Below are positions 6,863 to 40,591 of a DNA stretch of 64,000 bases, piece by piece. The DNA comes from an uncultured Candidatus Saccharibacteria bacterium (GTDB lineage Bacteria > Patescibacteriota > Minisyncoccia > Phycocordibacterales > UBA9973), in assembly GCA_964646765.1 (NCBI GenBank), contig CAZYIA010000002.1, positions 208,735 to 272,734 of the forward strand. The letters run 5' to 3'. Both the position numbers and the translations under genes were made by a program. How positions within the stretch are numbered: the first letter of the stretch is position 1; every line of letters begins with the position of its first letter. A model generated the notes under the pieces. The model saw only the letters and a list, made by a program, of their open reading frames with translations, did no database searches and was not told the DNA's origin.

Positions 6863-6873
6863 TCATTTTTTAT

Positions 6874-26543: not shown

Positions 26544-26603
26544 AGCTAACAATATGAGTTGAAAAAAGCCTTATTTTAGGCTAAAGTAGCTCGGTATTGC
26601 TAT

Positions 26604-26677
26604 TGCGGGATCGTCTAATGGTAGGACACATGACTCTGAATCATGTTATCTAGGTTCGAGTCCTAGTCCCGCAGCCA
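26604..26677 (+). tRNA. tRNA-Gln(CUG) with encoded CCA
   Basis: U1:A72 acceptor 'TGCGGGA'/'TCCCGCA'. Discriminator G plus CCA, as in E. coli tRNA-Gln. Anticodon stem 'CATGA/TCATG' with loop 'CTCTGAA'. T-arm 'CTAGGTTCGAGTCCTAG'. Confidence 0.75.
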
Positions 26678-26713
26678 ACTTGAGCTAGCTCAAAGATAGC
26701 TAGTTTATAAACA

Positions 26714-26748
26714 AAAACACCTCTCAAATTTGAGAGGTGTTTTTGTTG
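26714..26748 (+). terminator. Rho-independent terminator after tRNA-Gln
   Basis: 'aaaaacacctctcaaatttgagaggtgtttttgttgttt'. Confidence 0.55.
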
Positions 26749-26783
26749 TTTTATATTACAACAAGATATGCTATAATCTTTGT

Positions 26784-26990
26784 ATGAAAGATGATGCCAA
26801 AAAGTTGGGAGAAAATCTCAAAAAACTTAGGATCAAAAAAGATATTAGCCAAATAGAACTCGCTCGTATGTTGAGTGTTGATCGATCTTTTGTAAGCAAT
26901 ATCGAGAATGGAAAAAATAATCCAACTCTTTCAACCATTACTAGCTTAGCCAAGGCGTTAGGTGTTTCAACTAACGAACTTTTAAAATAA
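26784..26990 (+). CDS. XRE-family HTH regulator (controller/C-protein-like)
   Basis: 68 aa. 'LKKLRIKKDISQIELARMLSVDRSFVSNIENGKNNPTLSTITSLAKALGVSTNEL' is an HTH_3. TATAAT at 26772-26777 lies 6 nt upstream of the ATG (leaderless-type). Stop is 1 nt before the next start. Confidence 0.7.
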   Translation: MKDDAKKLGENLKKLRIKKDISQIELARMLSVDRSFVSNIENGKNNPTLSTITSLAKALGVSTNELLK

Positions 26991-26991
26991 T

Positions 26992-29900
26992 ATGTCGTCA
27001 TCAATAACAAACACCGGTGATAATACGCTTTCGTCAAACTTAAAGAGCATTTTGCCTAATTGCGACAAGGTAGACGCTTTGGTTGGATATTTTTACTTTT
27101 CTGGCTTTCGAGATTTGCATAATGAACTAAAAGATAAGCAAATAAGAATTTTGGTTGGAATGGATATTGATAAGAAAATTATTGATAAAGTTTCAACTCT
27201 AAAAGATCTAAACCTAGACTCATATACAACAGACACAAAAACATCTTCTCGCTCTATTGCAAAAGATGATTACATTGAGAACTTTTCAAGAATTTTTAAT
27301 GATACAGATTTCTTTGATAACGACGAATCACAGAAAGCTTTTGAAATATTTTTAGATAAAATTAAAGACGGTAGTTTGCAAATCAAGAAGACTGCACAAG
27401 CAAACCATTCAAAGTTCTATATTCTTCACAACAAGCCCGAGTTTTCAACTAATGGAATTACTCCAGGAATTGTAATTGAAGGTTCAAGCAACCTAACTTT
27501 TTCAGGATTGAAGGGTCAAGGAGAACACAATCGTATTTTAATGGAAAAACATTACTACGAGGATGATGTTAAGCGGTTTGAATCAGTATGGAATGACCCT
27601 GACAACATAGTTATCACTGATCTTGATTCAGCAGAAACTTTTATAAAAGAAGTAAAGGAAAAGATTTGGCTTTATGCTTTGCCAAATCCGCTTTTGATGT
27701 ATTACAAAGTACTAAATGAATACTTTGCTGTTACTGAAATAGAAAACATGAAGACCCCGAAACACATTACTGGGGGTAAATTTTCTGATCTTAAATATCA
27801 AAAAGATGCCATCAATCTAGGTATTGATCGTATTAAGAAGTTCGGAGGTGTAATCATTGCCGATGTGGTAGGTCTAGGAAAAAGTATTATTGCTTCTGCG
27901 ATTGCTCACAACCTTGGTTATAAAACAATCATTATTGCACCACCTCACCTCGAGAATCAGTGGAAAGATTACATGTCTGAATTTGATTTTAAAGGTTTTG
28001 TATATTCAACTGGGAAAATAGAAGAAGCATTACAACGACACGGCGATGACGAAGGTAAGCTTTTGGTTATATTAGACGAAGCCCACAAGCATCGAAATGA
28101 GGATACTGACAATTACAAAGTTCTGCACAGACTCTGTGCAGGTAACTATGTAATGGCTCTATCTGCAACTCCTTTCAATAACGATCCAAAAGATATTTAC
28201 GCCTTGATTAAGCTCTTTAGTACCCCAGGACAATCAACCATTAGAACAGTGGAAAACCTAAGTATGTCTTTCCACATGCTCTTTAAACGATATAAAGCTG
28301 TTCGTCGGGATCTACGAAAGAGTACAAAAGATGAATCAGATAACTCTGAAATTAAAGTCGAACTACATTCAATTGCAGATGAATTAAGAAAAATGATTGA
28401 GCCGTTGATTATTCGAAGATCACGACTTGATTTGGAAGAGATCGAAGAATACAAAGAAGACTTGAAAGCTCAAGGTGTTGCTTTTGCAAAAGTGAAGGAT
28501 CCACAACTATTGGAGTACGATCTTGGTGATATGTTTGACCTCTATGTAAGTACACTCGAAAAAATTGCTCCAGAAGATAGAAGCACTAGTTTTATTGGTG
28601 CGCGATACAAGCCTGCTTCTTACATTAATCAGGGTTCAAAATTCCTTGAAAAATTGATTGAGCAAGATGACGAAGATGGAATGTCTGCGGAAGAAAAACT
28701 ACAGCGTATTCAACAAGGACAAAGCAACCTTGCTCGATTCATGCGAAGACTCCTTGTTCGACGCTTTGAAAGTTCTGTTGGAGCATTCAAGTTGTCATTG
28801 AAAAATATGATTACTTCTTCTGAAGCAATGCTTGATTGGTATGAGAATCGCCAGGAAGTTCCTATATTTAAAAAAGGTGTGTTGCCAGACGCGGAATATC
28901 TCAGTGAACTTGATGAAAAAGAATTAGAAGAAACCCTAAACAGACTTGAAGACAAGGGTCTTATTAGAATTCCATTAAGTGAATTACAACCTCAGTTTGG
29001 AGATCATTTAAGACACGATATTGCTCTTCTAAAAGAGATTGATTCAGATTGGTCTGATAAAACTAGTGATCCAAAGTTTGAATTCTTTAAACAAAAAATT
29101 ACTCAATCTTTAACAGAAAATCCAAACAGAAAAATTGTTGTATTTACAGAGTTCTCCGACACCGCAAACTATGTATTCCAAAAATTACAAAAAGACGGAT
29201 TTAATCGTGTATTTAAATACAGTTCAGAAGATGCTTCTGATGAAAATAAGAAAATAATCAGATCAAACTTTGATGCTGGACTTGAAGAAGCAAAACAGTC
29301 TAATGACTTCGATATCATTATTGCCACTGATGCAATTTCCGAAGGGTTCAACTTGCATAGAGCAGGAGCAATCATAAACTACGATATTCCATATAACCCA
29401 ACTCGTGTTATTCAACGTGTTGGTCGTATCAACCGTATCAACAGAAAAGTTTTTGATGAATTGTATATTTATAACTTCTTCCCAACACTTACCGGAGAGC
29501 TTGAAACTCGAACAAAAGCAATCTCAACTCTTAAAATGGATTTGATCCATACACTTTTGGGCGAGGACACAAAAACTCTTACATCAGAAGAAGACTTAAA
29601 GAACTACTTTGCAAAGCAATACAAAGAAGAAAATAGTAAAAATGAAAGTTTATCTTGGGACGCTCCATACCGAAATACATGGCTCAAGATCAAGGATGAT
29701 AAAAAGATCATGGAACAAATATCACGAATACCGCATCGTTCAAGAATTGCTCGAAATACCAAAGATATTAACGGTGTAGTTGCATTTGCAAAGAAGAGCG
29801 GAAACTATGTATTTGCATTTGGAAATACTCCTGAAACAGTTCAAATTGTATCTCCACAAGTTGCACTTCCTTTGTTTAATCAAGTTGTAGATTCAGAGGA

Positions 29901-30285
29901 GTCACTGCAAACAACAGTAAACTTCGATCCAATTTATAAAATGGCTAAAGAGCATATCTTTAAAGACAATACAAAAGCTTCTGTCGATGGTGGTCGAAAG
30001 CAAGATGCACTCAACAGGGTTAAATTGCTTGGTGAATTGTATCCTCAAGCAAAAGACCTTTGCTTAGATATCATTAGAGCAATCAAGGATCTTGATGCTC
30101 TTCCAAATGGAGTACTTAAAGAGATTGTAGAACTTCGTATTGATAAAGCTAATCCAGAAAATGCATACTTAGAACTCAAAGAACTTATCCCAAGTAAATA
30201 TCTTGAAAGTATCTTTGAAACAGCTGATAGAGCAAATGATGATGGAAAGCTCATTGTTCTCTCTGAAGAATTAATCGCACTATGA
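26992..30285 (+). CDS. PLD-family nuclease (single HKD) fused to SNF2-family helicase
   Basis: N-terminus: 'NHSKFYILHN...GIVIEGSSNLT' (HxK...GSxN). SNF2 motifs: I 'ADVVGLGKSIIA', Ia 'TIIIAPPHLENQW', II 'ILDEAHKHRN', III 'LSATPFNNDPKDIYALIKLF', V/VI 'DAISEGFNLHRAGAIINYDIPYNPTRVIQRVGRINR'. 1097 aa. Confidence 0.75.
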   Translation: MSSSITNTGDNTLSSNLKSILPNCDKVDALVGYFYFSGFRDLHNELKDKQIRILVGMDIDKKIIDKVSTLKDLNLDSYTTDTKTSSRSIAKDDYIENFSRIFNDTDFFDNDESQKAFEIFLDKIKDGSLQIKKTAQANHSKFYILHNKPEFSTNGITPGIVIEGSSNLTFSGLKGQGEHNRILMEKHYYEDDVKRFESVWNDPDNIVITDLDSAETFIKEVKEKIWLYALPNPLLMYYKVLNEYFAVTEIENMKTPKHITGGKFSDLKYQKDAINLGIDRIKKFGGVIIADVVGLGKSIIASAIAHNLGYKTIIIAPPHLENQWKDYMSEFDFKGFVYSTGKIEEALQRHGDDEGKLLVILDEAHKHRNEDTDNYKVLHRLCAGNYVMALSATPFNNDPKDIYALIKLFSTPGQSTIRTVENLSMSFHMLFKRYKAVRRDLRKSTKDESDNSEIKVELHSIADELRKMIEPLIIRRSRLDLEEIEEYKEDLKAQGVAFAKVKDPQLLEYDLGDMFDLYVSTLEKIAPEDRSTSFIGARYKPASYINQGSKFLEKLIEQDDEDGMSAEEKLQRIQQGQSNLARFMRRLLVRRFESSVGAFKLSLKNMITSSEAMLDWYENRQEVPIFKKGVLPDAEYLSELDEKELEETLNRLEDKGLIRIPLSELQPQFGDHLRHDIALLKEIDSDWSDKTSDPKFEFFKQKITQSLTENPNRKIVVFTEFSDTANYVFQKLQKDGFNRVFKYSSEDASDENKKIIRSNFDAGLEEAKQSNDFDIIIATDAISEGFNLHRAGAIINYDIPYNPTRVIQRVGRINRINRKVFDELYIYNFFPTLTGELETRTKAISTLKMDLIHTLLGEDTKTLTSEEDLKNYFAKQYKEENSKNESLSWDAPYRNTWLKIKDDKKIMEQISRIPHRSRIARNTKDINGVVAFAKKSGNYVFAFGNTPETVQIVSPQVALPLFNQVVDSEESLQTTVNFDPIYKMAKEHIFKDNTKASVDGGRKQDALNRVKLLGELYPQAKDLCLDIIRAIKDLDALPNGVLKEIVELRIDKANPENAYLELKELIPSKYLESIFETADRANDDGKLIVLSEELIAL

Positions 30286-33200
30286 AATTAAACGAAAAAT
30301 ACAATCCAGAATCTTTTGTTAATTTTATTCAAGATTTTCTTCCTGAAGATTTTAATCTCAAAGAAGAGGATATTGTAATTAACAAAGATAGATATAAAGA
30401 GATAACCAGAGCAAAGATTTTGGGTTTTTGTGAATCGCTAGATTTACATGTTTTGGAAATGGATCATACCCACGATAAAGATCCACGAGTGGCAATCGCT
30501 ACTGATGCTTTCAAAATTCTTGCTGATCACTGGATCCACAGAGCTTTAGTTATATTTAAAAACAACGATTCTGATAACTATCGTTTTTCATACCTTACAA
30601 TATCTCTCGATCTTAATGATAAGAATAAAGTTGTTAAAAAGTACTCAAACGCACGACGTTATTCTTTTTATTTAGGAACTAACGCAAAAGTTAAAACTCC
30701 AGAACAACAACTTATTAAAAAAGGGAAAATTAAGGATGTAGATGATCTGCTTAATCGGTTTTCTGTTGAAGTCGTAAATAAGCAATTCTACCTAGAAGTT
30801 GCAAAATTCTTTGATGAATTGGTTTCAATAGAAGATCAAAACCTAATTCTTCCTGGAGTATCCGAAACAGATATAAACACCCGAAAAAGCTTTGCTGTTC
30901 GACTTATTGGTCGCGCGATGTTTTGCTGGTTTTTGAAGCAGAAAAAATCAGATAATGGACAACTTGTTCCTGACGAAATCTTATCTTCAAAAGTTGTATC
31001 TGATAATTACTATCACAATACTCTTGAGCCTCTTTTCTTTGGAGTTCTGAACACAAGTATTGATGCCCGTGATATACGAACTGAACTCTTTGATAAAGTG
31101 CCATATTTAAACGGAGGGTTGTTTAATCCTCAAACAGACGACTACTACGAACTTGATCGTGGTACTTTTGCTTCAAAATACATCAATACTCTCAAGATAA
31201 GCGACAAGTGGTTTAAGGAATTCTTTGAACTTCTAGAAACATATAATTTCACCATTGATGAAAACACCGTATTTGATCAAGAACTTTCCGTTGATCCTGA
31301 AATGCTTGGTCGTATTTTTGAAAATCTTTTGGCTGAAATTAACCCTGAAACAGGAAGTAGTGAACGAAAACGAACAGGAAGTTTTTATACTCCAAGACAG
31401 ATTGTTGAGTATATGGTGGACAAGTCTCTAGTTGAGTATTTTAAGACAAAGACAAGTATTGAAGATAAAAAACTAAATGCGGTAGTCAGTTACGATCTTA
31501 CTGATGATACAGAGTATCCATTAAACCAAGAAGAGAAAAAACAGATAATCGATGCTATTGAATCATTAAAAATTCTTGATCCTGCTTGTGGGTCAGGTGC
31601 ATATCCAATCGGTGCACTTCAGAAAATTGTATACATTCTGCAACAAGTAGATCCTGATTGTACAATGTGGCTCGATAAGAAGCTCCAGGGTGTACCAGAT
31701 TTGTACAAACAAAAGATAATTAATGAGGTAAAACAAAATCCGTTTGATTACACCAGAAAACTTGATGTCATAAAGAACTCAATTTTCGGGGTAGATATTC
31801 AACCAATCGCTGTAGATGTATCTCGCTTGCGATGTTTTTTGACGTTAGTTGTTGAATCTGAAATTGACGATAATAAACCAAATCGAGGTATTGAACCACT
31901 TCCAAACTTGGACTTTAAATTCGTATGTGCAAATACACTTATCCCTCTACCTAAATCAACTGCAACAAATCTTTTTGATGATCATTCAGGTATTACTGAG
32001 CTATCAAAAATAATGTCAGAATATTTCTCTTGTAATAGTCAAAGAAAAAATGAACTTAGAATTAAGTTCACTAATGCACAAAAAGAAATTCTTGAAAAAA
32101 CCGTATCAGCCTTTGGTAAAAATACTGGCGAGCTTACTTTAAAACTTACAACATGGAATCCATTTAGTAACCACTCAAATTCCTGGTTTGATCCAGAATG
32201 GATGTTTGGATTACAAGAAAAATTCAGCATTGTTATAGGTAATCCTCCATACGTTGATTCAGAAACAATGGTAAAAGATGATCCGGCAATGCGTGAGTTT
32301 TATTCATCTTTATATAAAACTGCAAGTGGTAACTGGGATCTTTTCGTTATTTTTATTGAACAAGGAATCAATCTTTTAAACGATAAAGGTAGTTTATCGT
32401 TTATAGTTCCAAATAAATTGATCGGGGCAAAATATTCAGAGTCAATACGATCTCTAATGATGTCAAAAAATATTCGATATATAAGAGACTATTCAAGTGT
32501 AAAAGTATTTAAAGAAGCAAGTGTTTATCCTGTTGTGTTTCAGGTTTCTAATTACACTCAAGATAAATCTGAGGTTATTTTAACAAAGATGAAGGATATT
32601 GAAGACGCGGAGTTGATAAACAAAGTCCCACATTCCTTGTTTTATGATGATGTATATTGGGATCGATATTTTATAGAACCCAAATTTTTAGAATTAATAG
32701 TAAAAATTACAAATAATAAAAAATTAGTAGAGATTAATAATCAGATTCTAGGATCAGCGACGGTTAATGAAGCATATCAACTCAAGGAGCTTGTGCATGA
32801 GATAGAAGACATCGAGGGGAATAATTTCAAGAAACTAATAAATTCAGGAACAATTGATCCTTATACTTCCTTGTGGGGTGTAAAAAAGACACAATATATT
32901 AAATCATCTTATAATAAACCTGTAGTTAATAATGATGTCTTACTAAAACTTCTGCCAAAAAGATTCACTCAAGCCGATTCTAGCAAATTAATTATTGCTG
33001 GGATGTCTAAAAGACTTGAGGTTTTTCTTGATAAAGGAGAATACATTGCTGGAAAATCCACTACAATTATTCTTGATAATCAAAAAATGGACATTCGTTA
33101 TTTGCTTGCTATTTTGAATTCAAAATTAATTTCTTATTGGTATCAGATTTACTTCAAATCACTTTCACTTGCAGGCGGATATCTTAGAATCAGTAATAAT

Positions 33201-33386
33201 GAAATTAAAAAAATCCCAATCGCAATTGCTGATAGTAGTTCAGAGATAACTATATTAGATTTGGTTGATCAAATTATGGATGGTAAATCTGCAAATGTAT
33301 CTGATTTGGAATCAAAATTAGAAGAATTAATAATGGATGTGTATAAATTAAACAACGAAGAAAAAGAAATCGTGCGGAATGCTTAA
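30282..33386 (+). CDS. Large gamma-class N6-adenine DNA methyltransferase (Eco57I/PglX/DrmMI-like) with C-terminal specificity region
   Basis: Motif I 'ILDPACGSGAYPIGAL' precedes motif IV 'VIGNPPYVD'. 1034 aa. ATGA overlap with the upstream helicase gene (translational coupling). Confidence 0.8.
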   Translation: MKLNEKYNPESFVNFIQDFLPEDFNLKEEDIVINKDRYKEITRAKILGFCESLDLHVLEMDHTHDKDPRVAIATDAFKILADHWIHRALVIFKNNDSDNYRFSYLTISLDLNDKNKVVKKYSNARRYSFYLGTNAKVKTPEQQLIKKGKIKDVDDLLNRFSVEVVNKQFYLEVAKFFDELVSIEDQNLILPGVSETDINTRKSFAVRLIGRAMFCWFLKQKKSDNGQLVPDEILSSKVVSDNYYHNTLEPLFFGVLNTSIDARDIRTELFDKVPYLNGGLFNPQTDDYYELDRGTFASKYINTLKISDKWFKEFFELLETYNFTIDENTVFDQELSVDPEMLGRIFENLLAEINPETGSSERKRTGSFYTPRQIVEYMVDKSLVEYFKTKTSIEDKKLNAVVSYDLTDDTEYPLNQEEKKQIIDAIESLKILDPACGSGAYPIGALQKIVYILQQVDPDCTMWLDKKLQGVPDLYKQKIINEVKQNPFDYTRKLDVIKNSIFGVDIQPIAVDVSRLRCFLTLVVESEIDDNKPNRGIEPLPNLDFKFVCANTLIPLPKSTATNLFDDHSGITELSKIMSEYFSCNSQRKNELRIKFTNAQKEILEKTVSAFGKNTGELTLKLTTWNPFSNHSNSWFDPEWMFGLQEKFSIVIGNPPYVDSETMVKDDPAMREFYSSLYKTASGNWDLFVIFIEQGINLLNDKGSLSFIVPNKLIGAKYSESIRSLMMSKNIRYIRDYSSVKVFKEASVYPVVFQVSNYTQDKSEVILTKMKDIEDAELINKVPHSLFYDDVYWDRYFIEPKFLELIVKITNNKKLVEINNQILGSATVNEAYQLKELVHEIEDIEGNNFKKLINSGTIDPYTSLWGVKKTQYIKSSYNKPVVNNDVLLKLLPKRFTQADSSKLIIAGMSKRLEVFLDKGEYIAGKSTTIILDNQKMDIRYLLAILNSKLISYWYQIYFKSLSLAGGYLRISNNEIKKIPIAIADSSSEITILDLVDQIMDGKSANVSDLESKLEELIMDVYKLNNEEKEIVRNA

Positions 33387-34720
33387 TTAAAAGATATTAT
33401 TTTATTTTTCAAGATAATCTTACTCTTAAAACAAGTTAGTAATTCTCGTTTCTCCTCAATTAAACCATCTTTCAAAATAAATTTGGCGTAGTCTCTAATG
33501 TCTATGTCTTTTATTTGTATTTGTTGCTTTGTGTTTAACACAAATTGATTAAAGCGTTTGATTCTTTCAACTTCGTATTTAATCTTTTCTTTCATTCCTA
33601 TCTCGTTAATATTTACCTGATCAATCAACTTTTCAAATTGCTGTATTAGATCTACTTCATTTATATACCCACACTTACAGTTCTTATCCTTAGATCTCGT
33701 ACACCCATAATAGATATGCCTATTTACTGATCCGTCTTTAAGTTTTTTAAACTTTTCATCTGCACATATTCCAGAACCACAAAGCCCACATGTCATCATT
33801 TTTGTAAAAGCAAATTCTTTTGGCTCTTGGGTTCGCAACACTTGGCTTTTTGTTTGTTCTTGGACTAGATCAAAAAGTTCTTTATTGATTATCGGCTCGT
33901 GTTTTCCAGTATAGAAATTTCCACTTTTCCGTGGATACTCAAAAACTCCATAATAGAATGGATTTTGAAGTATGAGATAAATATTGCTAAGGGTAAGACC
34001 TTTGTTGCCACTACGAGTTTTGAAATTAAGATCGAACTTAAGCCAGTGATAAAGTTTTCTTCCTGACCATTTTTCGTATGCCACTTTTTCAAACATTTGT
34101 TTAACTATCGGTGCTCGTTCTGGGTCTATAACGACTTCACACTTTTTATCCATTCGTTTTTCATTGAGATACCCAACAACAGCAGGACCCGGGCGAAGCC
34201 CCATCTCACATCTTGTTCGTAAACCTCGTTTTACATTGATACTTTTATTATCGTTCTCGAGTTTTGCTTGAGAACATAGAATCATCAAAAGAAACTTCTC
34301 ATTTGGAGAATTTTTGAAGTGTTGCCCATATGTTCTGATTTCAAGAAGTTTTGTTTCATCCATAAGATCAACAACAGATCCAAGGTCACCGGCATTTCTT
34401 GATAGACGATCTGGTGCCCAGGTGAGTATACCGTTATACCTACCACGCCTTATGTCCTCTAATACCTCTCTAAATACTGGTCGTTGACCAGATTCTTTAG
34501 CCGAGTGAGATTCACGTCTAATATCAACAACCGTTAAACTATCACGGTCGGCTATAGCAAGCATTTCCTTAACCTGTGATTCGATAGACAGGGCTTGTTT
34601 TTCGTCTGATTCGGTTGATTTTCGAGCATATAGGACATACCGAATCTTGGTTTTTGGTACCTCTGTCCTTACTCCTAAATTGCTTATATATTGCGTCTCC
34701 ATATTATATTGATGACGCAA
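33383..34720 (-). CDS. Large serine recombinase (integrase)
   Basis: Resolvase catalytic domain 'YVLYARKSTESDEKQALSIESQ'. Recombinase domain. Zn-ribbon 'CGLCGSGICADEKF...YYGCTRSKDKNCKCGY'. C-terminal coiled-coil. 445 aa. Confidence 0.85.
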   Translation of the reverse strand: MRHQYNMETQYISNLGVRTEVPKTKIRYVLYARKSTESDEKQALSIESQVKEMLAIADRDSLTVVDIRRESHSAKESGQRPVFREVLEDIRRGRYNGILTWAPDRLSRNAGDLGSVVDLMDETKLLEIRTYGQHFKNSPNEKFLLMILCSQAKLENDNKSINVKRGLRTRCEMGLRPGPAVVGYLNEKRMDKKCEVVIDPERAPIVKQMFEKVAYEKWSGRKLYHWLKFDLNFKTRSGNKGLTLSNIYLILQNPFYYGVFEYPRKSGNFYTGKHEPIINKELFDLVQEQTKSQVLRTQEPKEFAFTKMMTCGLCGSGICADEKFKKLKDGSVNRHIYYGCTRSKDKNCKCGYINEVDLIQQFEKLIDQVNINEIGMKEKIKYEVERIKRFNQFVLNTKQQIQIKDIDIRDYAKFILKDGLIEEKRELLTCFKSKIILKNKIISFN

Positions 34721-34774
34721 TTTGAGCGTTTTGCTAAGTCTATGCAGAACTAGCGAAATATTGCATACTCGCGA

Positions 34775-36277
34775 CTACTTCACTGACTCAACATCAACAT
34801 AATCAGAATAATAAATTGTGCTGTCGTCATCACCACCTAGCCAAAACATTATTATGGTACCTTCATTTGAATGCTTATCGAGAGTTGCATTTATGAGTAG
34901 TGAAAATGCGTCTGCAAGATCATCGTGTTTTTCAGCCCCAAATCCAACCAGTTGTTCAATTAAATCTTCACACCCTTGTCTGGGGAACTTTATAATCCCT
35001 GATTTTATAGCAGTTGAAGTAAGAGAAAGTCTAGTTCTTTTATCTCCTTTCGGCTTAATTGCTTCTGCGGTAATTCCATGAAGCTCAAGCATTTGAGGTA
35101 GTGCTTCTTGATATGCAACACTCTCAACAAAAAGAGTGTCGCTAGATCTTGGCATATTAGTTGCTTTAAAGTTTTTCATTAAATCCACTTGTGCCGGGAA
35201 ATTTAGTTTTTGCTGAATTGGGTTTGGGAGGATGTATATACGCATTTTTTCTCTTCTGCTATACACATGAGCAGAAACAATAGTTGTAAAATCCGCTGAA
35301 TCTTTTGCTGAAATGGCAAGGTCTACTCCTGCATAAGTACCTCGGTATCCCATATGCCTGGTTCCAGGCAGATCATCATAATATTGAATCCATTCTCTAT
35401 AAATAACTTGATCATCACTCGGAATAATACGAAGTAAATATTCCCGTTGCCATGATATTTCACTAGCAACTTTTAGTTTTTCTTCTTCAATATCTTTTGT
35501 ATCTTTGTATTTTCCAGGCCACAAGCATAGATCATTTTTATCTAAGAGTGGGTATTCTTTAAAAATACCTTTTGCTTTGCCTTTTGAAATTTCGTCCTTG
35601 ATACGCATTAAGAGTGAATCCTCGTGGAGCAAGTTTCCGACAATGATTAGTCGAGTATTTCTATCTCCAGCAGGTACAATCTCACCACGGAGCCAATGAT
35701 ACGTCTTATCTCTCCCTTCACGAGTTTTAGCAGACTGCACGTCTTCCACATCATCACAAATGATTAAGTCTGGTCGATGTTCGTTATGGCGAATACCACG
35801 AATACTTTGTTCAGTAGAAGCTACGGTAATTCTAGCTCCGTGCTTCTTAAAAACGAGAGAGAACGAACCCCACTCGTCGCTTTCTTCTTGAAATGGTCCA
35901 AGATCTTTTTTAAGAACATCGTTACCCTCAAGTTCAGTACGAATATTCATCATATGTTGCTTTGCCTGTGCTCTAGTCTGACAGAAAATAATACAAAATT
36001 TCTTTTGTTGTTTTCCGAGGATTGCCCAAATAGGATATGCAGTCGTTACCATAGTAGATTTTCCAGATCCACGAAATGCCACCACATATAGGTTTTCAGT
36101 AGTGCTTTTTTCGAGATTATGGATAATCTCTTTTTGAAAGTCTGCCGTTTCGTACTTCACATAGTGTGCATAGTAGAAGTGGAAAAAGTATAGGAAGCTA
36201 TCTTTTGTAATTGATGTTCGCACTGATCTATCTTTAATCATAGTATTCACCAGTGCTTTTGGAATTATTTTAGTCAT
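34775..36277 (-). CDS. Phage terminase large subunit
   Basis: Walker A 'VVAFRGSGKSTM'. Walker B 'LIICDDVED'. C-terminal RNaseH-like nuclease region with acidic residues. 500 aa. Confidence 0.8.
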   Translation of the reverse strand: MTKIIPKALVNTMIKDRSVRTSITKDSFLYFFHFYYAHYVKYETADFQKEIIHNLEKSTTENLYVVAFRGSGKSTMVTTAYPIWAILGKQQKKFCIIFCQTRAQAKQHMMNIRTELEGNDVLKKDLGPFQEESDEWGSFSLVFKKHGARITVASTEQSIRGIRHNEHRPDLIICDDVEDVQSAKTREGRDKTYHWLRGEIVPAGDRNTRLIIVGNLLHEDSLLMRIKDEISKGKAKGIFKEYPLLDKNDLCLWPGKYKDTKDIEEEKLKVASEISWQREYLLRIIPSDDQVIYREWIQYYDDLPGTRHMGYRGTYAGVDLAISAKDSADFTTIVSAHVYSRREKMRIYILPNPIQQKLNFPAQVDLMKNFKATNMPRSSDTLFVESVAYQEALPQMLELHGITAEAIKPKGDKRTRLSLTSTAIKSGIIKFPRQGCEDLIEQLVGFGAEKHDDLADAFSLLINATLDKHSNEGTIIMFWLGGDDDSTIYYSDYVDVESVK

Positions 36278-36279
36278 AA

Positions 36280-36687
36280 TTATTTTTTACGATTAATGTT
36301 TTTAATGGATTTCGACTTGGTAATTTTTGCGAGTTTAAGTGCCTGCTTTACAATTTTCGCTTGTGACGGTGTTAGTTCCTCGTTATCATCTTTAGTAGTA
36401 ATCTCAAGTTTGTTTTTGTAATTATCATTTCGATGACGAAGCCAAAAACTAATTGCAGGATAGTTTTTCTCTTTAATAAGAGTAAGTAGTTGGCTTTCGC
36501 TCATGTCATTTACCAAAGTAACACCTTCAGAAAGTGCACCATCCATTTTCTTGAGAAATTCTTTATCATCTTTTCTCCATCGATATACACTGTTGCGAGA
36601 CAATCCTGTTTTCTCACACGCTACCTGAACGATTGGCACTTTTCGCAGTTCATCAAGGAACTGGTCTTGAAATTTATTCTTTTTCAT
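36280..36687 (-). CDS. Putative terminase small subunit / HTH DNA-binding protein
   Basis: 135 aa. HTH 'VACEKTGLSRNSVYRWRKDDKEF'. Basic C-terminus. Sits immediately upstream of TerL and overlaps the preceding gene's end. Confidence 0.45.
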   Translation of the reverse strand: MKKNKFQDQFLDELRKVPIVQVACEKTGLSRNSVYRWRKDDKEFLKKMDGALSEGVTLVNDMSESQLLTLIKEKNYPAISFWLRHRNDNYKNKLEITTKDDNEELTPSQAKIVKQALKLAKITKSKSIKNINRKK

Positions 36688-37951
36688 AGAAGTTCTTGAT
36701 TACCTGTGCTTTGTGACCAGTTAATTTTTCATAGCGACGAATCGCCAAATCGCAAAACACAGGTTCTATTTCTAGGGAATAGACCTTTCGACCCAATTGT
36801 TCCGCACAGATCATAGTGCTAGCAGATCCAGAAAAGGCATCAAAAATGATGTCTCCTGGCTTAGTGCAACGCATAATAAACTTATGGTGTAATTCAGGAT
36901 TTTTACTCGTTGCATGTTCCATTTGATTTGAAGGTAGTCGTTTTGTAGCCCAAATGTTTGAAACATCTTCTAGAAGCTGATTACCAGTTCCATAATCTTT
37001 GTTTTGAACTTCGTTTAGATTTCTTACGAGATCAGAAATATATGGAGATCCTTTTGTGCCGTACACGCAATACTCAAGACACTTGTTGAACGCCACGGTA
37101 GGTGTCGGCGATGAGTTATTTTTAACCCAAACATTAAGTCTTCGGTTCTTAACTCCGTTTTCCATATAGAGTGTTTGAAAAACCCACACCCAGGCTTCAT
37201 CACACCAGAAAGCGACATGTACATCTTTAGTAGATATGGTTAGTGAAGATTTTAGAACCTTGCGAATAAATTCTTTATATTCTTCGGGTGATTGATTGTC
37301 GTCAAACGTACCTCCGTAGTTGGATTTATTTCCCACACCTTTATCGTATGAGAGCCCTATATTAAAGGGTGGGTCATTGTAGATAGCAGTGGCTTTATCG
37401 TTTCCGAACAGTTTAGTAACAGCATTAACATCAGTTGAACTAGCACACAACAACTTATGACTACCCATGATTATAAGATCACCTGGTTTAGTCTGTGGTG
37501 TTTTTATTTTCTTTAACTCTTTATCGACATCGAATTTGTCATCTTTGGTATCCTTTTCTTCGTCCCAAAACTTAACCAATTCTTTTTCGTTAAATCCAGC
37601 AAATTGCAAAAGCTCTAGGTCAAAAGACTTAAGCTTTTCAAAATCCCATTCTCCATCATTTATATTACTTTCAATAGCAATCTTGCGACGTTCTTCGTCA
37701 GATAATTTACGATCAGGTATCAACACGTTTACTTGCTTGATACCAAGTTGTATCAAAGCGGTTTTTCTTTGATTGCCTGAAATAATAGTGTTATCTGTAT
37801 CAATGACAATCACACTGTGAAAACCACTTTGAATGATTTTCTCCTTTAATTTCTCCATAGCGACCCTTGAGATTTTTCTTGGATTTTCTTTCCAAGGGAG
37901 TAAGTCTTTGACCTCTCGAACTCCTGTTTTCCATAAAGGTTTTTTATTCAT
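36674..37951 (-). CDS. ParB-like nuclease domain fused to beta-class N4/N6 DNA methyltransferase
   Basis: ParB/Srx box 'IISGNQRKTALIQLGIKQVNVLI'. MTase motif IV 'DPPFNIG' precedes motif I 'IIFDAFSGSASTMICAEQLGRK'. 425 aa. Confidence 0.75.
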   Translation of the reverse strand: MNKKPLWKTGVREVKDLLPWKENPRKISRVAMEKLKEKIIQSGFHSVIVIDTDNTIISGNQRKTALIQLGIKQVNVLIPDRKLSDEERRKIAIESNINDGEWDFEKLKSFDLELLQFAGFNEKELVKFWDEEKDTKDDKFDVDKELKKIKTPQTKPGDLIIMGSHKLLCASSTDVNAVTKLFGNDKATAIYNDPPFNIGLSYDKGVGNKSNYGGTFDDNQSPEEYKEFIRKVLKSSLTISTKDVHVAFWCDEAWVWVFQTLYMENGVKNRRLNVWVKNNSSPTPTVAFNKCLEYCVYGTKGSPYISDLVRNLNEVQNKDYGTGNQLLEDVSNIWATKRLPSNQMEHATSKNPELHHKFIMRCTKPGDIIFDAFSGSASTMICAEQLGRKVYSLEIEPVFCDLAIRRYEKLTGHKAQVIKNFYEKE

Positions 37952-38125
37952 AGAGTTTTTATTTAATTACTTATAAATTTGTAGATGACTAATCTACTAA
38001 CTCCATGAAATCAAAAAGGTACATAGGCATGTAATTGGCATAAAATTGAGTAGCATAAAGAAAAAACGCCTATTTAAAGGCGATTTTTCAAAGTTATCCA
38101 CTCAACTTGGTGTCAACTTAGGAAT

Positions 38126-38749
38126 TTATTCTTTCTCTATATGTATTTTAGGATTGATACGATACCCAGAACCTTTCTTTCCTTGAATAAGTTTTGTTTT
38201 CTTTGGAAGTCTTAGGGTGTTGATCACATAGTCATTAAAAGTCTGAACTATTTTTGCTACGGCTGACGATGAAAGCATGGATCCAAGTTCTTTTGTTTTT
38301 ACATATGTGCCACGATCAAGAAGTATTTCAAGTAATTGTTTTCTTTTTCCATTTTCAGTGAGATCGTATGAGAAAAGTTTACCTCCCAAATGTCTATCGA
38401 GTGATCCATTTCTTGTGTCATAAATAATTACATTGCTGTCTTGGCTCGAAGATAAAAGTCGCTTGTGGTTTTTATTTAACTCCTGGAGTTCTTCTAGAAT
38501 GTCGTATTCAACAGGACGACGGTATACGATTTCAGGGTATTCTACTGGTTCAAAAAGTTTTACTTGTTCTCGAACGCGATTCATTTGTTCAATGATCGGC
38601 TGAGCAATTTTTCTCACATTTTCAATCATTTCTGCATGTCTTTTACCAATCTCTTGGAATTGAGAAATCTGCCCCTCACTCAAAGCAGGAGGGTGTATCT
38701 TTGCTACCAGTTCACCGACGGTCATTGGTTTTTTCTGGTCATTTTCCAT
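38126..38749 (-). CDS. Hypothetical phage-island protein (early gene, divergent from the repressor)
   Basis: 207 aa. Basic C-terminus 'LPKKTKLIQGKKGSGYRINPK' may bind DNA. No firm motif. Confidence 0.35.
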   Translation of the reverse strand: MENDQKKPMTVGELVAKIHPPALSEGQISQFQEIGKRHAEMIENVRKIAQPIIEQMNRVREQVKLFEPVEYPEIVYRRPVEYDILEELQELNKNHKRLLSSSQDSNVIIYDTRNGSLDRHLGGKLFSYDLTENGKRKQLLEILLDRGTYVKTKELGSMLSSSAVAKIVQTFNDYVINTLRLPKKTKLIQGKKGSGYRINPKIHIEKE

Positions 38750-38807
38750 AAAGACATCATAGCAAATACTTGCTTTTTTGTATAGAGTAATTTATACTAT
38801 TTATACC

Positions 38808-39425
38808 ATGACAAATAACCTTAGTGACAAAGATAAAAAAGCGTTTGCCCTTATCCGTAACAAGATTGTTCATTATGGCAAAAGCCCTACACTTAGTGAG
38901 ATTAATAAGGTTACAGGTGGAGCTTCTCCACGATCTGCAAGCCTTGTAATTAATCGACTAATTGACGCAGGACTAATAAAAAAGATTGGACGACAGCTTA
39001 TCCTTACTGGATCACAAACAACAGCTTCAATAAGCACTGTTGATGTTCCTTTGGTAGGTGCTGTGACATGCGGTACCCCTGTTCTTGCCGAAGAAAATAT
39101 TCAAGCCTTGATCCCTGTATCAACAGGTCTAGCTAAAAAGGGTTCAAAATATTTTCTTTTGCGTGCAATTGGAGACTCAATGAATCTTGCAGGAATTAAT
39201 AGTGGTGATCTGCTTTTGATTCGACAGCAAGACACAGCAGAAGATAATGATAAAGTTGTTGCTCTTATAAATGACGAAGCAACCGTCAAAGTATTCAAGA
39301 AAGCGGATGGTGCTGTTGTACTTCAACCGAAGTCAACGAATAAAAACCATAAGCCGATTATATTAACAGATAACTGTATCATCCAAGGGGTAGTTGTTGC
39401 GGTACTTCCAGGTGATCTATATTAA
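38808..39425 (+). CDS. LexA/CI-like repressor (HTH + S24 peptidase domain)
   Basis: N-terminal wHTH 'SPTLSEINKVTGGASPRSASLVINRLIDAGLIKK'. S24 Ser 'GDSMNLAGINSGDLLLIRQQ'. Lys 'VVALINDEATVKVFKK'. ATG at 38808 is preferred over the track's TTG at 38778. Confidence 0.7.
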   Translation: MTNNLSDKDKKAFALIRNKIVHYGKSPTLSEINKVTGGASPRSASLVINRLIDAGLIKKIGRQLILTGSQTTASISTVDVPLVGAVTCGTPVLAEENIQALIPVSTGLAKKGSKYFLLRAIGDSMNLAGINSGDLLLIRQQDTAEDNDKVVALINDEATVKVFKKADGAVVLQPKSTNKNHKPIILTDNCIIQGVVVAVLPGDLY

Positions 39426-39431
39426 ATTTTT

Positions 39432-39659
39432 ATGGCAAAAAATATTCATACTGTTTATAACTCAGATCGTGGAATGTGGGAAAACAAAAAAGAGGGTTCT
39501 GATAAACCACTTTCTTCTCATCACACAAAAGATAATGCTCTTGATAGAGCAGAAAATATTGCTGAAAAAGCAAAGGTCGAACATTTTATTCACGGCAAGG
39601 ACGGAAAAATCCAGGAGCGTAATAGTTATGGGAATGATCCGTTTCCTCCTAGAGGCTAA
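39432..39659 (+). CDS. DUF2188-family small protein
   Basis: 75 aa. 'MAKNIHTVYNSDRGMWENKKEGSDKPLSSHHTKDNALDRAENIAEKAKVEHFIHGKDGKIQERNSYGNDPFPPRG' matches the DUF2188 pattern (HV.P...GW........HGRDG.I...DSYGNDP.PP.G). Confidence 0.55.
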   Translation: MAKNIHTVYNSDRGMWENKKEGSDKPLSSHHTKDNALDRAENIAEKAKVEHFIHGKDGKIQERNSYGNDPFPPRG

Positions 39660-39665
39660 AAGACT

Positions 39666-40589
39666 ATGGCTATTCCACTTTCTCAACTGACTACATGGTC
39701 AAACCAAGGTGCTACTGTTTCAGCAAAAGCAACTCATGAATCTATTCGAACAGCACTGACACATGACCAGTCGCCACTTAAAGATCGTATCAGTAATGGT
39801 TCGGTAAAAATCTATCTCCAAGGATCGTATAAAAACGATACAAATATTCGAGCAGATAGTGATGTGGATGTAGTTGTCGAATTAACAACTACATTTGGTC
39901 ATAATGCACACGAACTTCCTTATGATCAGAAAAATGCTCATGATCAGGCATATGGTAGTGCTGTTTATGATTGGCAAGATCTACGCAGAGATGTCATTTC
40001 TGCTCTGACTAAATATTATGGTTTACTATCTGTTGATACAAGTGGTAATAAATCAATTAAACTCAAACCCTCTTCAGGAAGACTAAAGGCTGACATTGTT
40101 CCTGTTATAAATTATCGTAAATATGATTATTTCTATGGTACCAATAGTCATAATGCAGAAGAGGGTGTGAAATTTTATCATCGCACAACAAATCGTGGAA
40201 TCATAAATTATCCAGAGCACCACTATCAAAACGGAGTTAATAAAAATTCAGATATTCGTACAGGCGGGCGCTTTAAGCCAACAGTACGAATTTTCAAGAA
40301 TATGAGAAACCATCTTGTTGATACAGGCAAACTTGCCGATGGTATAGCACCGTCATATTTCTTACAGTCATTAATTTACAATGTCCCTGATGAACATTTT
40401 ACCGGTGATCATTCGACAACCGTACACGCAGTATTAAAACACCTCTGGTCTGCATTACCTCTTGGTCAATGTATGTGTCAAAACCATTTTCATGAGTTAT
40501 TCGGTGAAAGTGAGGAGCAATGGAATCAAGATGATGCAGTAAAAACTATCAGTGCTTTTGTAGAGCTTTGGGATAATTGGAATCAATAA
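39666..40589 (+). CDS. Pol-beta-superfamily nucleotidyltransferase, SMODS/CD-NTase-like (candidate CBASS cyclase)
   Basis: 'LQGSYKNDTNIRADSDVDVVVEL' (GS...DxD) plus third acidic residue 'RLKADIVPV'. 307 aa. Operonic with a 2-TM effector-like gene. Confidence 0.6.
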   Translation: MAIPLSQLTTWSNQGATVSAKATHESIRTALTHDQSPLKDRISNGSVKIYLQGSYKNDTNIRADSDVDVVVELTTTFGHNAHELPYDQKNAHDQAYGSAVYDWQDLRRDVISALTKYYGLLSVDTSGNKSIKLKPSSGRLKADIVPVINYRKYDYFYGTNSHNAEEGVKFYHRTTNRGIINYPEHHYQNGVNKNSDIRTGGRFKPTVRIFKNMRNHLVDTGKLADGIAPSYFLQSLIYNVPDEHFTGDHSTTVHAVLKHLWSALPLGQCMCQNHFHELFGESEEQWNQDDAVKTISAFVELWDNWNQ

Positions 40590-40591
40590 TT

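What the first reader, a model, noticed from the sequence alone, without database searches (positions are those of the whole stretch)
26784..33386. Reduced DISARM/BREX-like module: C-protein-like HTH, then PLD::SNF2 fusion, then PglX/DrmMI-like N6A methyltransferase
Three co-directional, tightly coupled genes sit on the island. The first is a 68-aa XRE HTH whose stop is 1 nt before the next start. The second is a 1097-aa protein with one PLD 'HxK...GSSN' nuclease motif at the N-terminus followed by a complete SNF2 helicase motif set (I, Ia, II, III, V, VI). Its stop overlaps (ATGA) the start of a 1034-aa gamma-class amino-methyltransferase (motif I before NPPY), the size class of Eco57I, PglX and DrmMI. 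Class 1 DISARM is described as drmD (SNF2), drmMI (adenine MTase), drmA, drmB, drmC (PLD). Here DrmC-like and DrmD-like domains are fused in one polypeptide and drmA/drmB are absent, so it is neither canonical DISARM, BREX, nor a Type I/III R-M system. A PLD nuclease tethered to an SNF2 translocase, with a dedicated very large MTase, would be a compact translocating restriction-like system. I do not recognise this exact architecture as a described system.
Basis: partly seen in the sequence, partly recalled or inferred. Interest (0 to 1): 0.85.

Follow-up and report, generated by a model that had tools for sequence, protein, structure and literature searches.

The report
PLD-SNF2 nuclease-motor plus methylase restriction module
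Three tightly linked genes on a mobile island of a Saccharibacteria-like (CPR) genome encode a small regulator, a nuclease fused to a DNA motor, and a large adenine methylase with a swappable DNA-reading domain; together they look like a two-protein ATP-driven restriction-modification system of a type that comparative genomics has already noticed but that nobody has named or tested.

Summary
At 26784-33386 (+) lie a 68-aa XRE/C-protein-like HTH, a 1097-aa protein with one N-terminal HKD/PLD motif and a full SNF2 ATPase, and a 1034-aa gamma-class N6A methyltransferase with a TaqI_C-type recognition domain. The stop/start coupling is as described.

The helicase-MTase pair is conserved in every related locus that has downstream DNA. 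That covers 15 CPR loci and 11 of 13 plasmid or phage contexts across bacteria and archaea. The helicase is 77-98% identical among CPR copies, while the MTase recognition domain is swapped (24-33% identity). This is the signature of restriction-modification specificity diversification.

No DrmA/B, PglZ, BrxC or DUF499 gene is in the window, so it is not DISARM, BREX or Hma/BR. The MTase N-terminus has no conserved nuclease triad, so the PLD domain is the likely nuclease.

The claim that the architecture is undescribed is only partly right:
- HKD-SNF2 fusions in R-M systems were noted by Aravind's group.
- The family is PADLOC 'C3a139 HKD+Snf2'.
- The exact pairing was listed by Milman et al. 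2023.
- Type-2 BR systems use the same effector.

It remains unnamed and untested, and the MTase is routinely filed as 'Type IIG'. I rate it a new member of a known kind, of moderate interest.

The parts
26743..26777 (+). Putative operator and promoter: inverted repeat TTGTTGT-N8-ACAACAA (26743-26764) overlapping the -35 region, then TATAAT (26772-26777) 6 nt before the HTH ATG, which would give a leaderless transcript.
   Evidence: Sequence read. Promoter scan gives 10 of 12 matches with TG before the -10. The repeat and the TATAAT are kept in loci whose upstream DNA otherwise differs, such as L009, L016 and L020. Function is inferred, not shown.
26784..26990 (+). 68-aa XRE-family HTH, a C-protein-like controller. 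It is an accessory part, absent from many related loci.
   Evidence: HTH_3 E 1.9e-18. PADLOC Control_protein E 8.7e-15. Present upstream of the helicase in L007, L009, L013, L016, L018-L022 and L034, but absent in L001, L003-L006, L008, L010, L011, L014 and L017.
26992..30285 (+). 1097-aa HKD/PLD nuclease fused to an SNF2-type ATPase, followed by about 280 aa of uncharacterised C-terminus. This is the putative restriction subunit.
   Evidence: Pfam domains. PADLOC C3a139 'HKD+Snf2' covers residues 4-834, E 6e-31. H139-x-K141, GSSN164, GLGKS, DEAH, SATP and QRVGR are conserved from CPR to Parabacteroides, Thermus, Synechocystis, Actinomycetota and Halorussus. There is only one HKD motif.
30282..33386 (+). 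1034-aa methyltransferase-specificity subunit. It has an N-terminal beta-rich domain (1-135), a helical MmeI/HsdM-like spacer (about 150-330), a gamma-class N6A MTase (DPACGSG 433, NPPY 654) and a variable TaqI_C-type TRD (about 745-1034).
26604..26677 (+). tRNA-Gln(CTG) at the left edge of the low-GC island (context).
   Evidence: ARAGORN. Homology to L007, L009 and L016 starts at 26601-26604.
33383..39425 (.). Carrier-element genes (context): large serine recombinase 33383-34720 (-), TerL-like 34775-36277 (-), small HTH 36280-36687 (-), N6_N4 MTase 36674-37951 (-), orf207 38126-38749 (-), LexA/S24-like 38778-39425 (+).
   Evidence: The same genes travel with the pair in L001, L003, L007-L009, L022 and the IMG/VR contig L034.

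Best explanation
This is a two-protein, ATP-dependent restriction-modification module with an optional C-protein-like controller, carried on a mobile island.

Proposed mechanism:
1. The large MTase acts as a fused M+S subunit. Its C-terminal TRD reads a short, probably asymmetric DNA site. Its gamma-class N6A domain methylates host sites and so protects them.
2. The PLD::SNF2 protein is the restriction subunit. It has only one HKD motif, so two copies must pair to build one PLD active site, as in Nuc, BfiI and SauUSI.
3. When the MTase-TRD subunit meets an unmethylated site, it recruits or licenses the SNF2 motor. The motor translocates on dsDNA using ATP, and the dimeric PLD nuclease breaks the DNA away from the site.
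4. The HTH probably autoregulates a leaderless operon from a palindromic operator, which would delay nuclease expression after transfer to a new host.

Shown here:
- Domains and intact catalytic motifs.
- Translational coupling of the genes.
- Universal synteny of the pair.
- Co-variation of the two proteins across phyla.
- TRD swapping.
- Absence of other DISARM/BREX/BR parts.

Inferred, not shown:
- A physical complex between the two proteins.
- Protection by methylation.
- Translocation.
- The cleavage geometry.
- The C-protein circuit.
For: Synteny:
- The MTase homologue directly follows (overlapping or within 9 nt of) the helicase in all 15 CPR loci with downstream DNA and in the IMG/VR contig L034.
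- A large DNA MTase lies next to, or within two genes of, the PLD::SNF2 gene in Parabacteroides, Allomeiothermus, Thermus, Synechocystis, Picosynechococcus, Halorussus, Haloferax, Paenarthrobacter, Gordonia and Pseudarthrobacter. Microbacterium has an MTase-like 524-aa ORF followed by IS3 and IS110 transposase genes.

Co-variation (helicase identity / MTase identity): 44/35%, 32/25%, 32/24%, 27/25%, 26/27%.

Specificity diversification:
- Helicase identity is 77-98%, MTase core 69-86%, and TRD only 24-33% in 11 of 13 loci.
- The TRD is 65-69% identical in L006 and L011, whose helicases are more distant. TRD similarity is therefore decoupled from the rest of the module.

Catalytic motifs are conserved across phyla, and there is a single HKD motif.

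The MTase N-terminus is not a conserved nuclease:
- No D...ExK is conserved across distant homologues.
- The PADLOC Type IIG profile matches only from profile position 199.
- Foldseek finds nothing at E<1e-3.

Experimental hints from homologues:
- Synechocystis slr6050, whose neighbour is a PLD::SNF2 gene, is tentatively assigned the asymmetric GAm6AGGC motif. Its deletion cannot be segregated (PMC6105098), as expected if a cognate nuclease is active.
- HVO_A0079's homologue RM.Aco12261II has a SMRT-assigned motif, CCRGAm6G (PMC5867850).

Precedents:
- SauUSI has a PLD dimer and a helicase-like ATPase that translocates and shreds DNA (PMC7913695).
- HmaA, a nuclease-fused Snf2, defends against T4 (PMC11232893).

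Controller: PADLOC Control_protein hit and a conserved palindrome with TATAAT.

Context: the island is a defence island, with CBASS cyclase E 3e-106, a 2TM effector and PDC-S16.
Against: - Nothing here shows activity, methylation or a protein complex.
- The PLDc_2 Pfam score is only just at the gathering threshold (27.4 against 27), and the D of the H-x-K-x4-D motif is H in this protein.
- HVO_A0079 gives no detectable methylation in H. volcanii, although its PLD partner is cut short at 777 aa, lacks the C-terminal helicase lobe and is followed by an IS4 transposase gene.
- The slr6050 evidence is indirect: the authors could not purify the protein.
- The HTH is missing from many loci, so it is not a core part.
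- Actinobacterial PLD::SNF2 genes pair with MTases that BLASTP does not relate to this one.
Confidence: 0.65

Rival explanations
1. The 1034-aa protein is a genuine bifunctional Type IIG/IIL enzyme with its own N-terminal nuclease, like MmeI, Eco57I or Cj0031. The PLD::SNF2 protein would then be an accessory or backup effector.
For: - PADLOC REase_MTase_IIG E 3e-80.
- Weak MmeI_hel and MmeI_Mtase Pfam hits.
- REBASE files homologues as Type IIG.
- The N-terminal domain has an REase-like alpha-beta-beta-beta-alpha-beta order and a weak match to 9y1l.
Against: - The IIG profile match starts at profile position 199 and so skips the nuclease part.
- No acidic/lysine triad is conserved across distant homologues.
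- Ouellette et al. also found no N-terminal REase similarity.
- Strict synteny and co-variation with an intact PLD nuclease across phyla would be unnecessary for a self-sufficient enzyme.
Confidence: 0.1
2. It is a remnant or satellite of a larger DISARM-, BREX- or BR/Hma-type system, whose other components are lost or encoded elsewhere. It would not be functional on its own.
For: - The best sub-threshold family hits for the helicase C-lobe are DrmD, BrxHII and DpdE.
- Type-2 BR uses HKD::Swi2/Snf2 with an N6-MTase.
- In B. cereus plasmids a related helicase, with a degenerate PLD, sits beside DrmA and DUF1998.
Against: - No DrmA/B, PglZ, BrxC, DUF499 or DUF3780 is found in 64 kb or in the called genes of the CPR loci.
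- The two-gene unit recurs unchanged in 15 CPR loci and about 10 other lineages, with both reading frames and all motifs intact. That argues for a self-sufficient unit.
Confidence: 0.07
3. The pair serves the mobile element that carries it rather than host defence. For example, the MTase may protect element DNA and the SNF2/PLD protein may act in its replication, recombination or packaging, or in competition with other elements.
For: - The pair travels with a serine recombinase, a TerL-like protein, a small HTH and a ParB/N6_N4 MTase in many CPR loci, in varying order.
- One such contig is classed as viral in IMG/VR.
Against: - The same pair occurs without those genes on plasmids of Bacteroidota, Deinococcota, Cyanobacteriota, Actinomycetota and haloarchaea, often beside TIR, McrBC or DUF262 defence genes.
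- TRD swapping fits site-specific self/non-self marking.
- Only 10 weak partial hits were found in 50,697 phage genomes.
Confidence: 0.08
4. PLD::SNF2 is a modification-dependent (Type IV, SauUSI-like) enzyme, and the adjacent MTase is functionally unrelated or marks DNA for another purpose.
For: SauUSI has the same PLD plus SF2 layout and is modification-dependent.
Against: - The helicase has no recognisable modified-base reader domain.
- A neighbouring, translationally coupled and co-varying MTase would be suicidal for a Type IV enzyme that targeted the same mark.
- The slr6050 deletion is non-segregating, which is the opposite of what a Type IV logic predicts.
Confidence: 0.04

Closest known systems
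HKD(PLD)::SWI2/SNF2 helicases of prokaryotic R-M-like loci (PADLOC C3a139 'HKD+Snf2'; CDD cd09178 as cited by Milman et al. 2023) paired with a Type IIG-like MTase
   Same: - Same fusion order: a single HKD at the N-terminus followed by SNF2.
- Same size, about 1,060-1,160 aa.
- Same neighbour, a large Eco57I/Cj0031-like N6A MTase.
- The PADLOC profile matches residues 4-834.
   Different: This kind exists only as annotations and table entries. It has no name, no defined gene set in PADLOC or NCBIfam, and no experiment behind it. The CPR clade here is unusually uniform (68-97% identity) and travels on a serine-recombinase/TerL island with an optional C-protein.
Type-2 BREX-related (BR) / Hma-related systems (Rakesh & Krishnan 2026, PMC12839542)
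   Same: An HKD-endoDNase::Swi2/Snf2 effector plus an N6-MTase, proposed to act as an R-M-like system.
   Different: BR systems are defined by a DUF499 AAA+ ATPase (all types) and by DUF3780 (98% of Type-2). Neither is present here. PADLOC HmaA matches only the helicase C-lobe.
Class 1 DISARM (DrmD, DrmMI, DrmA, DrmB, DrmC)
   Same: The same three domain types are present: an SNF2 ATPase, a PLD nuclease and a large adenine MTase.
   Different: The core DrmA and DrmB (DUF1998) are absent. PLD and SNF2 are fused. DrmD scores 150 bits against a cut-off of 610. The MTase scores far better against Type IIG profiles (3e-80) than against DrmMI (6e-19).
Type ISP enzymes (LlaGI/LlaBIII) and Type IIL MmeI
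   Same: - The same functional parts list as Type ISP: nuclease, SF2 motor, gamma N6A MTase and a single TRD. An asymmetric site is expected.
- The MTase half resembles MmeI in its helical spacer, MTase and TRD.
   Different: Here the parts are split over two polypeptides. The nuclease is PLD rather than Mrr/PD-ExK, and the motor is SNF2-like. No N-terminal MmeI-type catalytic motif is conserved. What is said about Type ISP rests on my own knowledge.
SauUSI (Type IV) and CglI/NgoAVII (ATP-dependent Type II)
   Same: A PLD nuclease is coupled to an SF2 translocase. SauUSI is held together as a dimer by its nuclease domains and shreds DNA after translocation. In CglI, ATP-driven translocation by the H-subunits activates the nuclease of the R-subunits; that this nuclease is PLD-type is from my own knowledge.
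   Different: SauUSI reads methylated DNA through its own TRD and has no MTase partner. CglI splits nuclease and motor into R and H subunits. No sequence similarity to either was detected at E<0.01.

Membership tests
HKD+Snf2 family (PADLOC PDLC01075 C3a139) | Single polypeptide with an N-terminal HKD/PLD domain followed by an SNF2 ATPase, matching the family profile over most of its length | tested here: met
   Profile positions 3-744 of 948 match protein residues 4-834, E 6.4e-31. The HxK and GSxN motifs and the helicase motifs are conserved.
PLD/HKD nuclease superfamily | HxK...GSxN catalytic motif and a Pfam PLDc_2 match | tested here: met
   H139-S-K141 and G163-S-S-N166. PLDc_2 scores 27.4 bits against a cut-off of 27, which is marginal. 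The motif is conserved in homologues from six phyla. The D of HxKx4D is replaced by H.
SNF2 family ATPase | SNF2-related N-lobe plus Helicase_C, with Walker A, DEAH and motifs III and VI | tested here: met
   SNF2-rel_dom 46.4 bits (cut-off 24.9) and Helicase_C 59.2 bits. Motifs are shown.
Class 1 DISARM | DrmA helicase and DrmB (DUF1998) core genes in the locus | tested here: not met
   No such domains were found in any neighbour or in any ORF of at least 380 aa in the 64-kb window.
Class 1 DISARM | DrmD and DrmMI orthology | tested here: not met
   NCBIfam DISARM_DrmD scores 150 bits against a cut-off of 610, and only the helicase C-half matches. PADLOC DrmMI is 6e-19 against 3e-80 for Type IIG.
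BREX | PglZ phosphatase and BrxC ATPase present, and PglX orthology | tested here: not met
   No PglZ or BrxC. BREX_1 PglX scores 79.8 bits against a cut-off of 500.
Type-2 BR / Hma-related | DUF499 AAA+ ATPase and DUF3780 genes in the locus | tested here: not met
   Neither is present in the window or in the called genes of L001-L003. The definition is taken from PMC12839542.
Type-2 BR / Hma-related | HKD::Swi2/Snf2 effector plus N6-MTase | tested here: met
   Orthology to BR-type helicases was not tested, because no BR Type-2 sequence was available.
Type IIG/IIL R-M (Eco57I, MmeI) | One polypeptide carrying an active N-terminal PD-(D/E)xK nuclease, a gamma MTase and a TRD | tested here: inconclusive
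Type ISP R-M | Nuclease, motor, MTase and TRD in a single polypeptide, with an Mrr-type nuclease | tested here: not met
   There are two overlapping ORFs, and the nuclease is PLD. The resemblance is functional only.
Type I / Type III R-M | HsdR/HsdM/HsdS, or a beta-class Mod with a Res carrying a C-terminal PD-ExK | tested here: not met
   There is no HsdS/Methylase_S, HsdR or Type III Mod profile hit. The ResIII Pfam hit (E 7e-7) is a generic SF2 N-lobe match.
C-protein-controlled R-M operon | Small HTH controller upstream of the R gene, with a palindromic operator in its own promoter | tested here: inconclusive
   PADLOC Control_protein E 8.7e-15. A conserved 7-N8-7 palindrome and TATAAT lie 6 nt before the ATG. 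Binding and regulation cannot be tested here, and the HTH is absent from many loci.

The most novel reading that the evidence does not exclude
This may be a self-sufficient two-protein class of ATP-dependent restriction enzyme. In effect it would be a 'split Type ISP' with a dimeric PLD nuclease on an SNF2 motor, licensed by a separate MTase-TRD subunit. REBASE and PADLOC currently mis-file it as 'Type IIG'. In CPR/Patescibacteria, which largely lack CRISPR (my own knowledge), it would be a major mobile barrier to foreign DNA, spread between phyla by a serine-recombinase/terminase island with exchangeable TRDs.
Probability: 0.5. Interest if true: 0.55.

Novelty: new member of a known kind. Interest (0 to 1): 0.4.

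Why it matters
If the two genes suffice, hundreds of protein clusters now labelled 'helicase-related protein' and 'Type IIG R-M enzyme' would be re-read as the R and M/S subunits of one system. The PLD N-terminal region alone finds 671 clusters at 50% identity. That would correct R-M and defence annotation in REBASE, PADLOC and DefenseFinder-type tools.

It would also help to explain two puzzles. One is the non-deletable slr6050 of Synechocystis. The other is the silent HVO_A0079 of Haloferax, whose partner PLD gene is truncated and followed by an IS4 transposase gene.

It would give a tractable example of a PLD-SNF2 translocating nuclease. SNF2 motors of this kind are thought to be the source of eukaryotic chromatin remodellers (PMC3417536).

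For CPR bacteria it points to a widely shared, mobile, specificity-switching DNA barrier.

Tried and rejected
- PDB sequence searches found only TaqI's catalytic segment for the MTase and generic SF2 helicases for the motor.
- The AF2 model of the helicase C-terminus (residues 818-1097) had pLDDT 61. It was too poor to search, and I left the third fold search unused.
- I looked for an att duplicate of the tRNA-Gln 3' end to fix the right edge of the island. I found only an 86% match of 21 nt at 41519-41539, so this is not convincing.
- I looked for inverted TRD cassettes that would indicate a programmed inversion as in Milman et al. There are none in 26-43.5 kb.
- The phage genome collection gave only 10 weak partial hits. 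IMG/VR gave one contig.
- The related-loci scans use peptide words from the query, so they reach only close relatives. The CPR-only result is therefore biased, and I used plasmid tblastn to reach other phyla.
- I rejected 'reduced DISARM' and 'BREX subtype' as memberships because their defining genes are absent.


Full report
**1. Observation**

The three co-directional ORFs exist as described.
- The HTH is best read from the ATG at 26784 (68 aa). The longer TTG-initiated ORF would include a strong terminator hairpin at 26710-26747 that follows tRNA-Gln. Homologues also align from residue 1 of the 68-aa form.
- The HTH stop (TAA, 26988-26990) lies one base before the ATG of the 1097-aa ORF.
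- The stop of the 1097-aa ORF overlaps the start of the 1034-aa ORF as ATGA at 30282-30285.

Pfam results:
- HTH_3, E 1.9e-18.
- PLDc_2 at residues 47-200. This scores 27.4 bits against a gathering score of 27, so it is marginal.
- SNF2-rel_dom and Helicase_C.
- For the third protein: Eco57I (E 1e-33), N6_Mtase and TaqI_C (871-980).

I located these motifs:
- A single HxK (H139, K141) with GSSN at 164.
- GLGKS at 294, DEAH at 362, SATP at 391 and QRVGR at 808.
- In the MTase, DPACGSG at 433 ahead of NPPY at 654.

The genes have 32-35% G+C against 42-43% in the flanks.

**2. Where it sits**

Related loci come from Patescibacteria/CPR assemblies. The nearest (96-100% identity) are labelled Saccharibacteria.

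The low-GC island starts right after tRNA-Gln (26604-26677). Beyond the three genes it carries:
- a large serine recombinase;
- a TerL-like protein;
- a small HTH;
- an N6_N4 MTase;
- a LexA/S24-like protein;
- a PDC-S16 candidate gene and a two-gene CBASS, with cyclase E 3e-106 and a 2TM/Cap15 effector.

L007 and L009 share the stretch 26601-39426 at 86-91% DNA identity. Other CPR loci carry the same accessory genes in other orders. One such contig is in IMG/VR. The module is therefore cargo of a mobile, phage-derived island inside a defence island.

**3. The pair is a conserved unit**

In all 15 CPR loci with downstream DNA, the MTase homologue starts at, or within 9 nt of, the end of the helicase match.

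Outside CPR, tblastn against plasmids found full-length PLD::SNF2 homologues at 25-44% identity.
- A large DNA MTase lies adjacent, or separated by one or two small genes, in Parabacteroides, Allomeiothermus, Thermus, Synechocystis, Picosynechococcus, Halorussus, Haloferax, Paenarthrobacter, Gordonia and Pseudarthrobacter.
- Microbacterium has an MTase-like 524-aa ORF next to the helicase, followed by IS3 and IS110 transposase genes.
- In the two remaining contexts the helicase sits with DUF4391 and a Type III-like Mod/Res pair: B. cereus plasmids (beside DrmA and DUF1998) and Erysipelothrix phage phi1605.

Helicase and MTase identities fall together: 44/35, 32/25, 32/24, 27/25 and 26/27%.

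The N-terminal 260 aa alone find 671 clusters at 50% identity with E<=1e-3. The full-length members are all about 1,060-1,160 aa with the PLD domain at the N-terminus.

**4. Signature of restriction-modification**

Among the CPR copies:
- the helicase is 77-98% identical;
- the MTase up to about 90 residues past NPPY is 69-86% identical;
- the C-terminal TRD is 24-33% identical in 11 of 13 loci.

L007 illustrates this: its helicase is 98% identical but its TRD only 27%. The TRD is 65-69% identical in L006 and L011, whose helicases are only 88% and 79% identical. The 45-sequence alignment shows near-invariance up to NPPY and no consensus beyond it. This decoupled swapping of a DNA-recognition domain is what R-M specificity subunits do.

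The PLD and ATPase catalytic residues are conserved from CPR to archaea. The only exception is the DISARM-embedded B. cereus protein.

**5. Which protein is the nuclease?**

PADLOC and REBASE-style annotation call the MTase 'Type IIG', meaning bifunctional. The evidence against that reading:
- The PADLOC profile is matched only from position 199.
- The first 200 residues have no Pfam hit.
- An alignment with distant homologues shows no conserved acidic/lysine triad.
- Ouellette et al. likewise saw no N-terminal REase similarity in the homologue HVO_A0079.

I conclude that the MTase protein is an M+S subunit with a non-catalytic, or at least unproven, N-domain, and that the PLD domain is the nuclease. 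With one HKD motif per chain, two chains must pair. The two-HKD active site is established knowledge for the PLD superfamily, and the SauUSI dimer is held together by its nuclease domains.

**6. Mechanism proposed**

1. The MTase-TRD subunit reads a short, probably asymmetric site and methylates host copies.
2. At unmethylated sites it licenses the SNF2 motor.
3. ATP-driven translocation follows, and the dimeric PLD nuclease cuts at a distance from the site.
4. The HTH represses or times the operon from the palindrome TTGTTGT-N8-ACAACAA, which overlaps the -35. This palindrome, and a TATAAT 6 nt before the ATG, are conserved in loci whose upstream DNA otherwise differs.

Indirect experimental support:
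- Synechocystis slr6050 is a homologue at 25% identity whose operon partner is a PLD::SNF2 gene. It is tentatively assigned GAm6AGGC, and its deletion could not be segregated.
- Homologues of HVO_A0079 have SMRT-assigned asymmetric motifs.
- HVO_A0079 itself is silent. Its partner PLD protein is only 777 aa, lacks the C-terminal helicase lobe and is followed by an IS4 transposase gene.
- HmaA, a nuclease-fused Snf2, defends against T4.

Everything about complex formation, translocation and cleavage geometry is inference.

**7. Comparison with known systems**

*Not members.* It fails the membership tests for several families:
- DISARM: there is no DrmA or DrmB, and DrmD scores 150 bits against a cut-off of 610.
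- BREX: there is no PglZ or BrxC, and PglX scores 80 bits against a cut-off of 500.
- Hma/BR: there is no DUF499 or DUF3780.
- Types I, III and ISP.

*What it works like.* It would work most like a Type ISP enzyme split into two proteins, with a SauUSI-like PLD-motor half.

*Already noticed.* The architecture is not new to the literature:
- The family C3a139 'HKD+Snf2' (PMC6546367), which PADLOC carries.
- The exact pairing of a Type IIG-like CDS with a PLD(cd09178)+SNF CDS (PMC9881135).
- The HKD::Swi2/Snf2 effector of Type-2 BR systems (PMC12839542).

*Still open.* None of these papers names or tests the two-gene form. The NCBIfam and PADLOC libraries held here gave no match above a curated cut-off and no named system for the pair.

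**8. Verdict**

This is a new, CPR-borne member of a computationally known but unnamed and untested kind of ATP-dependent R-M system.

Interest is moderate (0.4). A specialist would not be surprised by the parts. The points worth an experiment are:
- the universality of the pair;
- the clean TRD swapping;
- the likely mis-annotation of a whole family as 'Type IIG';
- the spread of the module on a CPR mobile island.

Noticed in passing
window 39432-41191: A compact CBASS sits about 6 kb downstream on the same low-GC island: an oligonucleotide cyclase at 39666-40589 (PADLOC E 3e-106) and a Cap15/2TM effector at 40577-41191 (E 2e-56). It is preceded by a 75-aa ORF at 39432-39659 that matches the PADLOC candidate PDC-S16 over its full length (E 5e-28). 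L007 and L009 share the island only up to 39426, so this block may be a separate insertion.
   Followed up: partly
window 33383-39425; L001, L003, L007-L009, L022, L034: A recurring set of genes accompanies the R-M pair in several CPR lineages, in different orders: large serine recombinase, TerL-like protein, small HTH (TerS-like?), ParB_N/N6_N4 MTase and a LexA/S24-like repressor. No capsid genes were seen. It looks like a satellite or degraded-prophage type of mobile island. One copy is classed as viral in IMG/VR.
   Followed up: partly
window 26604-26747 and 41519-41539: The island begins directly after tRNA-Gln(CTG), which is followed by a perfect 19-bp-stem terminator. A 21-nt stretch 86% identical to the tRNA anticodon arm lies at 41519-41539, near where G+C recovers. 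It may be a decayed att remnant. No clean direct repeat was found.
   Followed up: partly
L025 (Synechocystis pSYSX) and L037 (Picosynechococcus PCC 73109): In both cyanobacterial plasmids a vapBC-like toxin-antitoxin pair sits between the PLD::SNF2 gene and the MTase (slr6050 in Synechocystis). The reported 'essentiality' of slr6050 may simply reflect an active cognate nuclease.
   Followed up: partly
L035 (Haloferax volcanii pHV4): HVO_A0079 is a 'Type IIG' MTase with no detectable methylation. It overlaps a PLD-like gene that is a PLD::SNF2 homologue cut short at 777 aa, lacking the C-terminal helicase lobe and followed by an IS4 transposase gene. This is a decayed copy of the same system in a model archaeon.
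   Followed up: partly
L027 (B. cereus plasmids) and L030 (Erysipelothrix phage phi1605): A more distant helicase of this family (25-27% identity) sits in a different conserved block: helicase, DUF4391, a Type III-like MTase and a DEAD/Res protein. In B. cereus its HxK/GSxN motif is degenerate and the block lies next to DrmA and DUF1998. This may be a DISARM-related variant that uses the fused protein.
   Followed up: no
L003 13267-16114: In this Paceibacterota-type locus the MTase ORF ends at 778 aa, shortly after NPPY, and is followed by a separate 186-aa ORF. This is either a split TRD or a decaying copy.
   Followed up: no
window 6856-10206: A 1116-aa ORF upstream of ligA has no Pfam domain at E<=1e-5. 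It lies outside the island and is of unknown nature.
   Followed up: no
The PLD::SNF2 protein is 68-97% identical across assemblies labelled Saccharibacteria, Paceibacterota, Moranbacteria, Nomurabacteria, Falkowbacteria, Roizmanbacteria and Taylorbacteria. That is far more similar than expected for such distant hosts, which points to recent lateral spread within CPR.
   Followed up: partly
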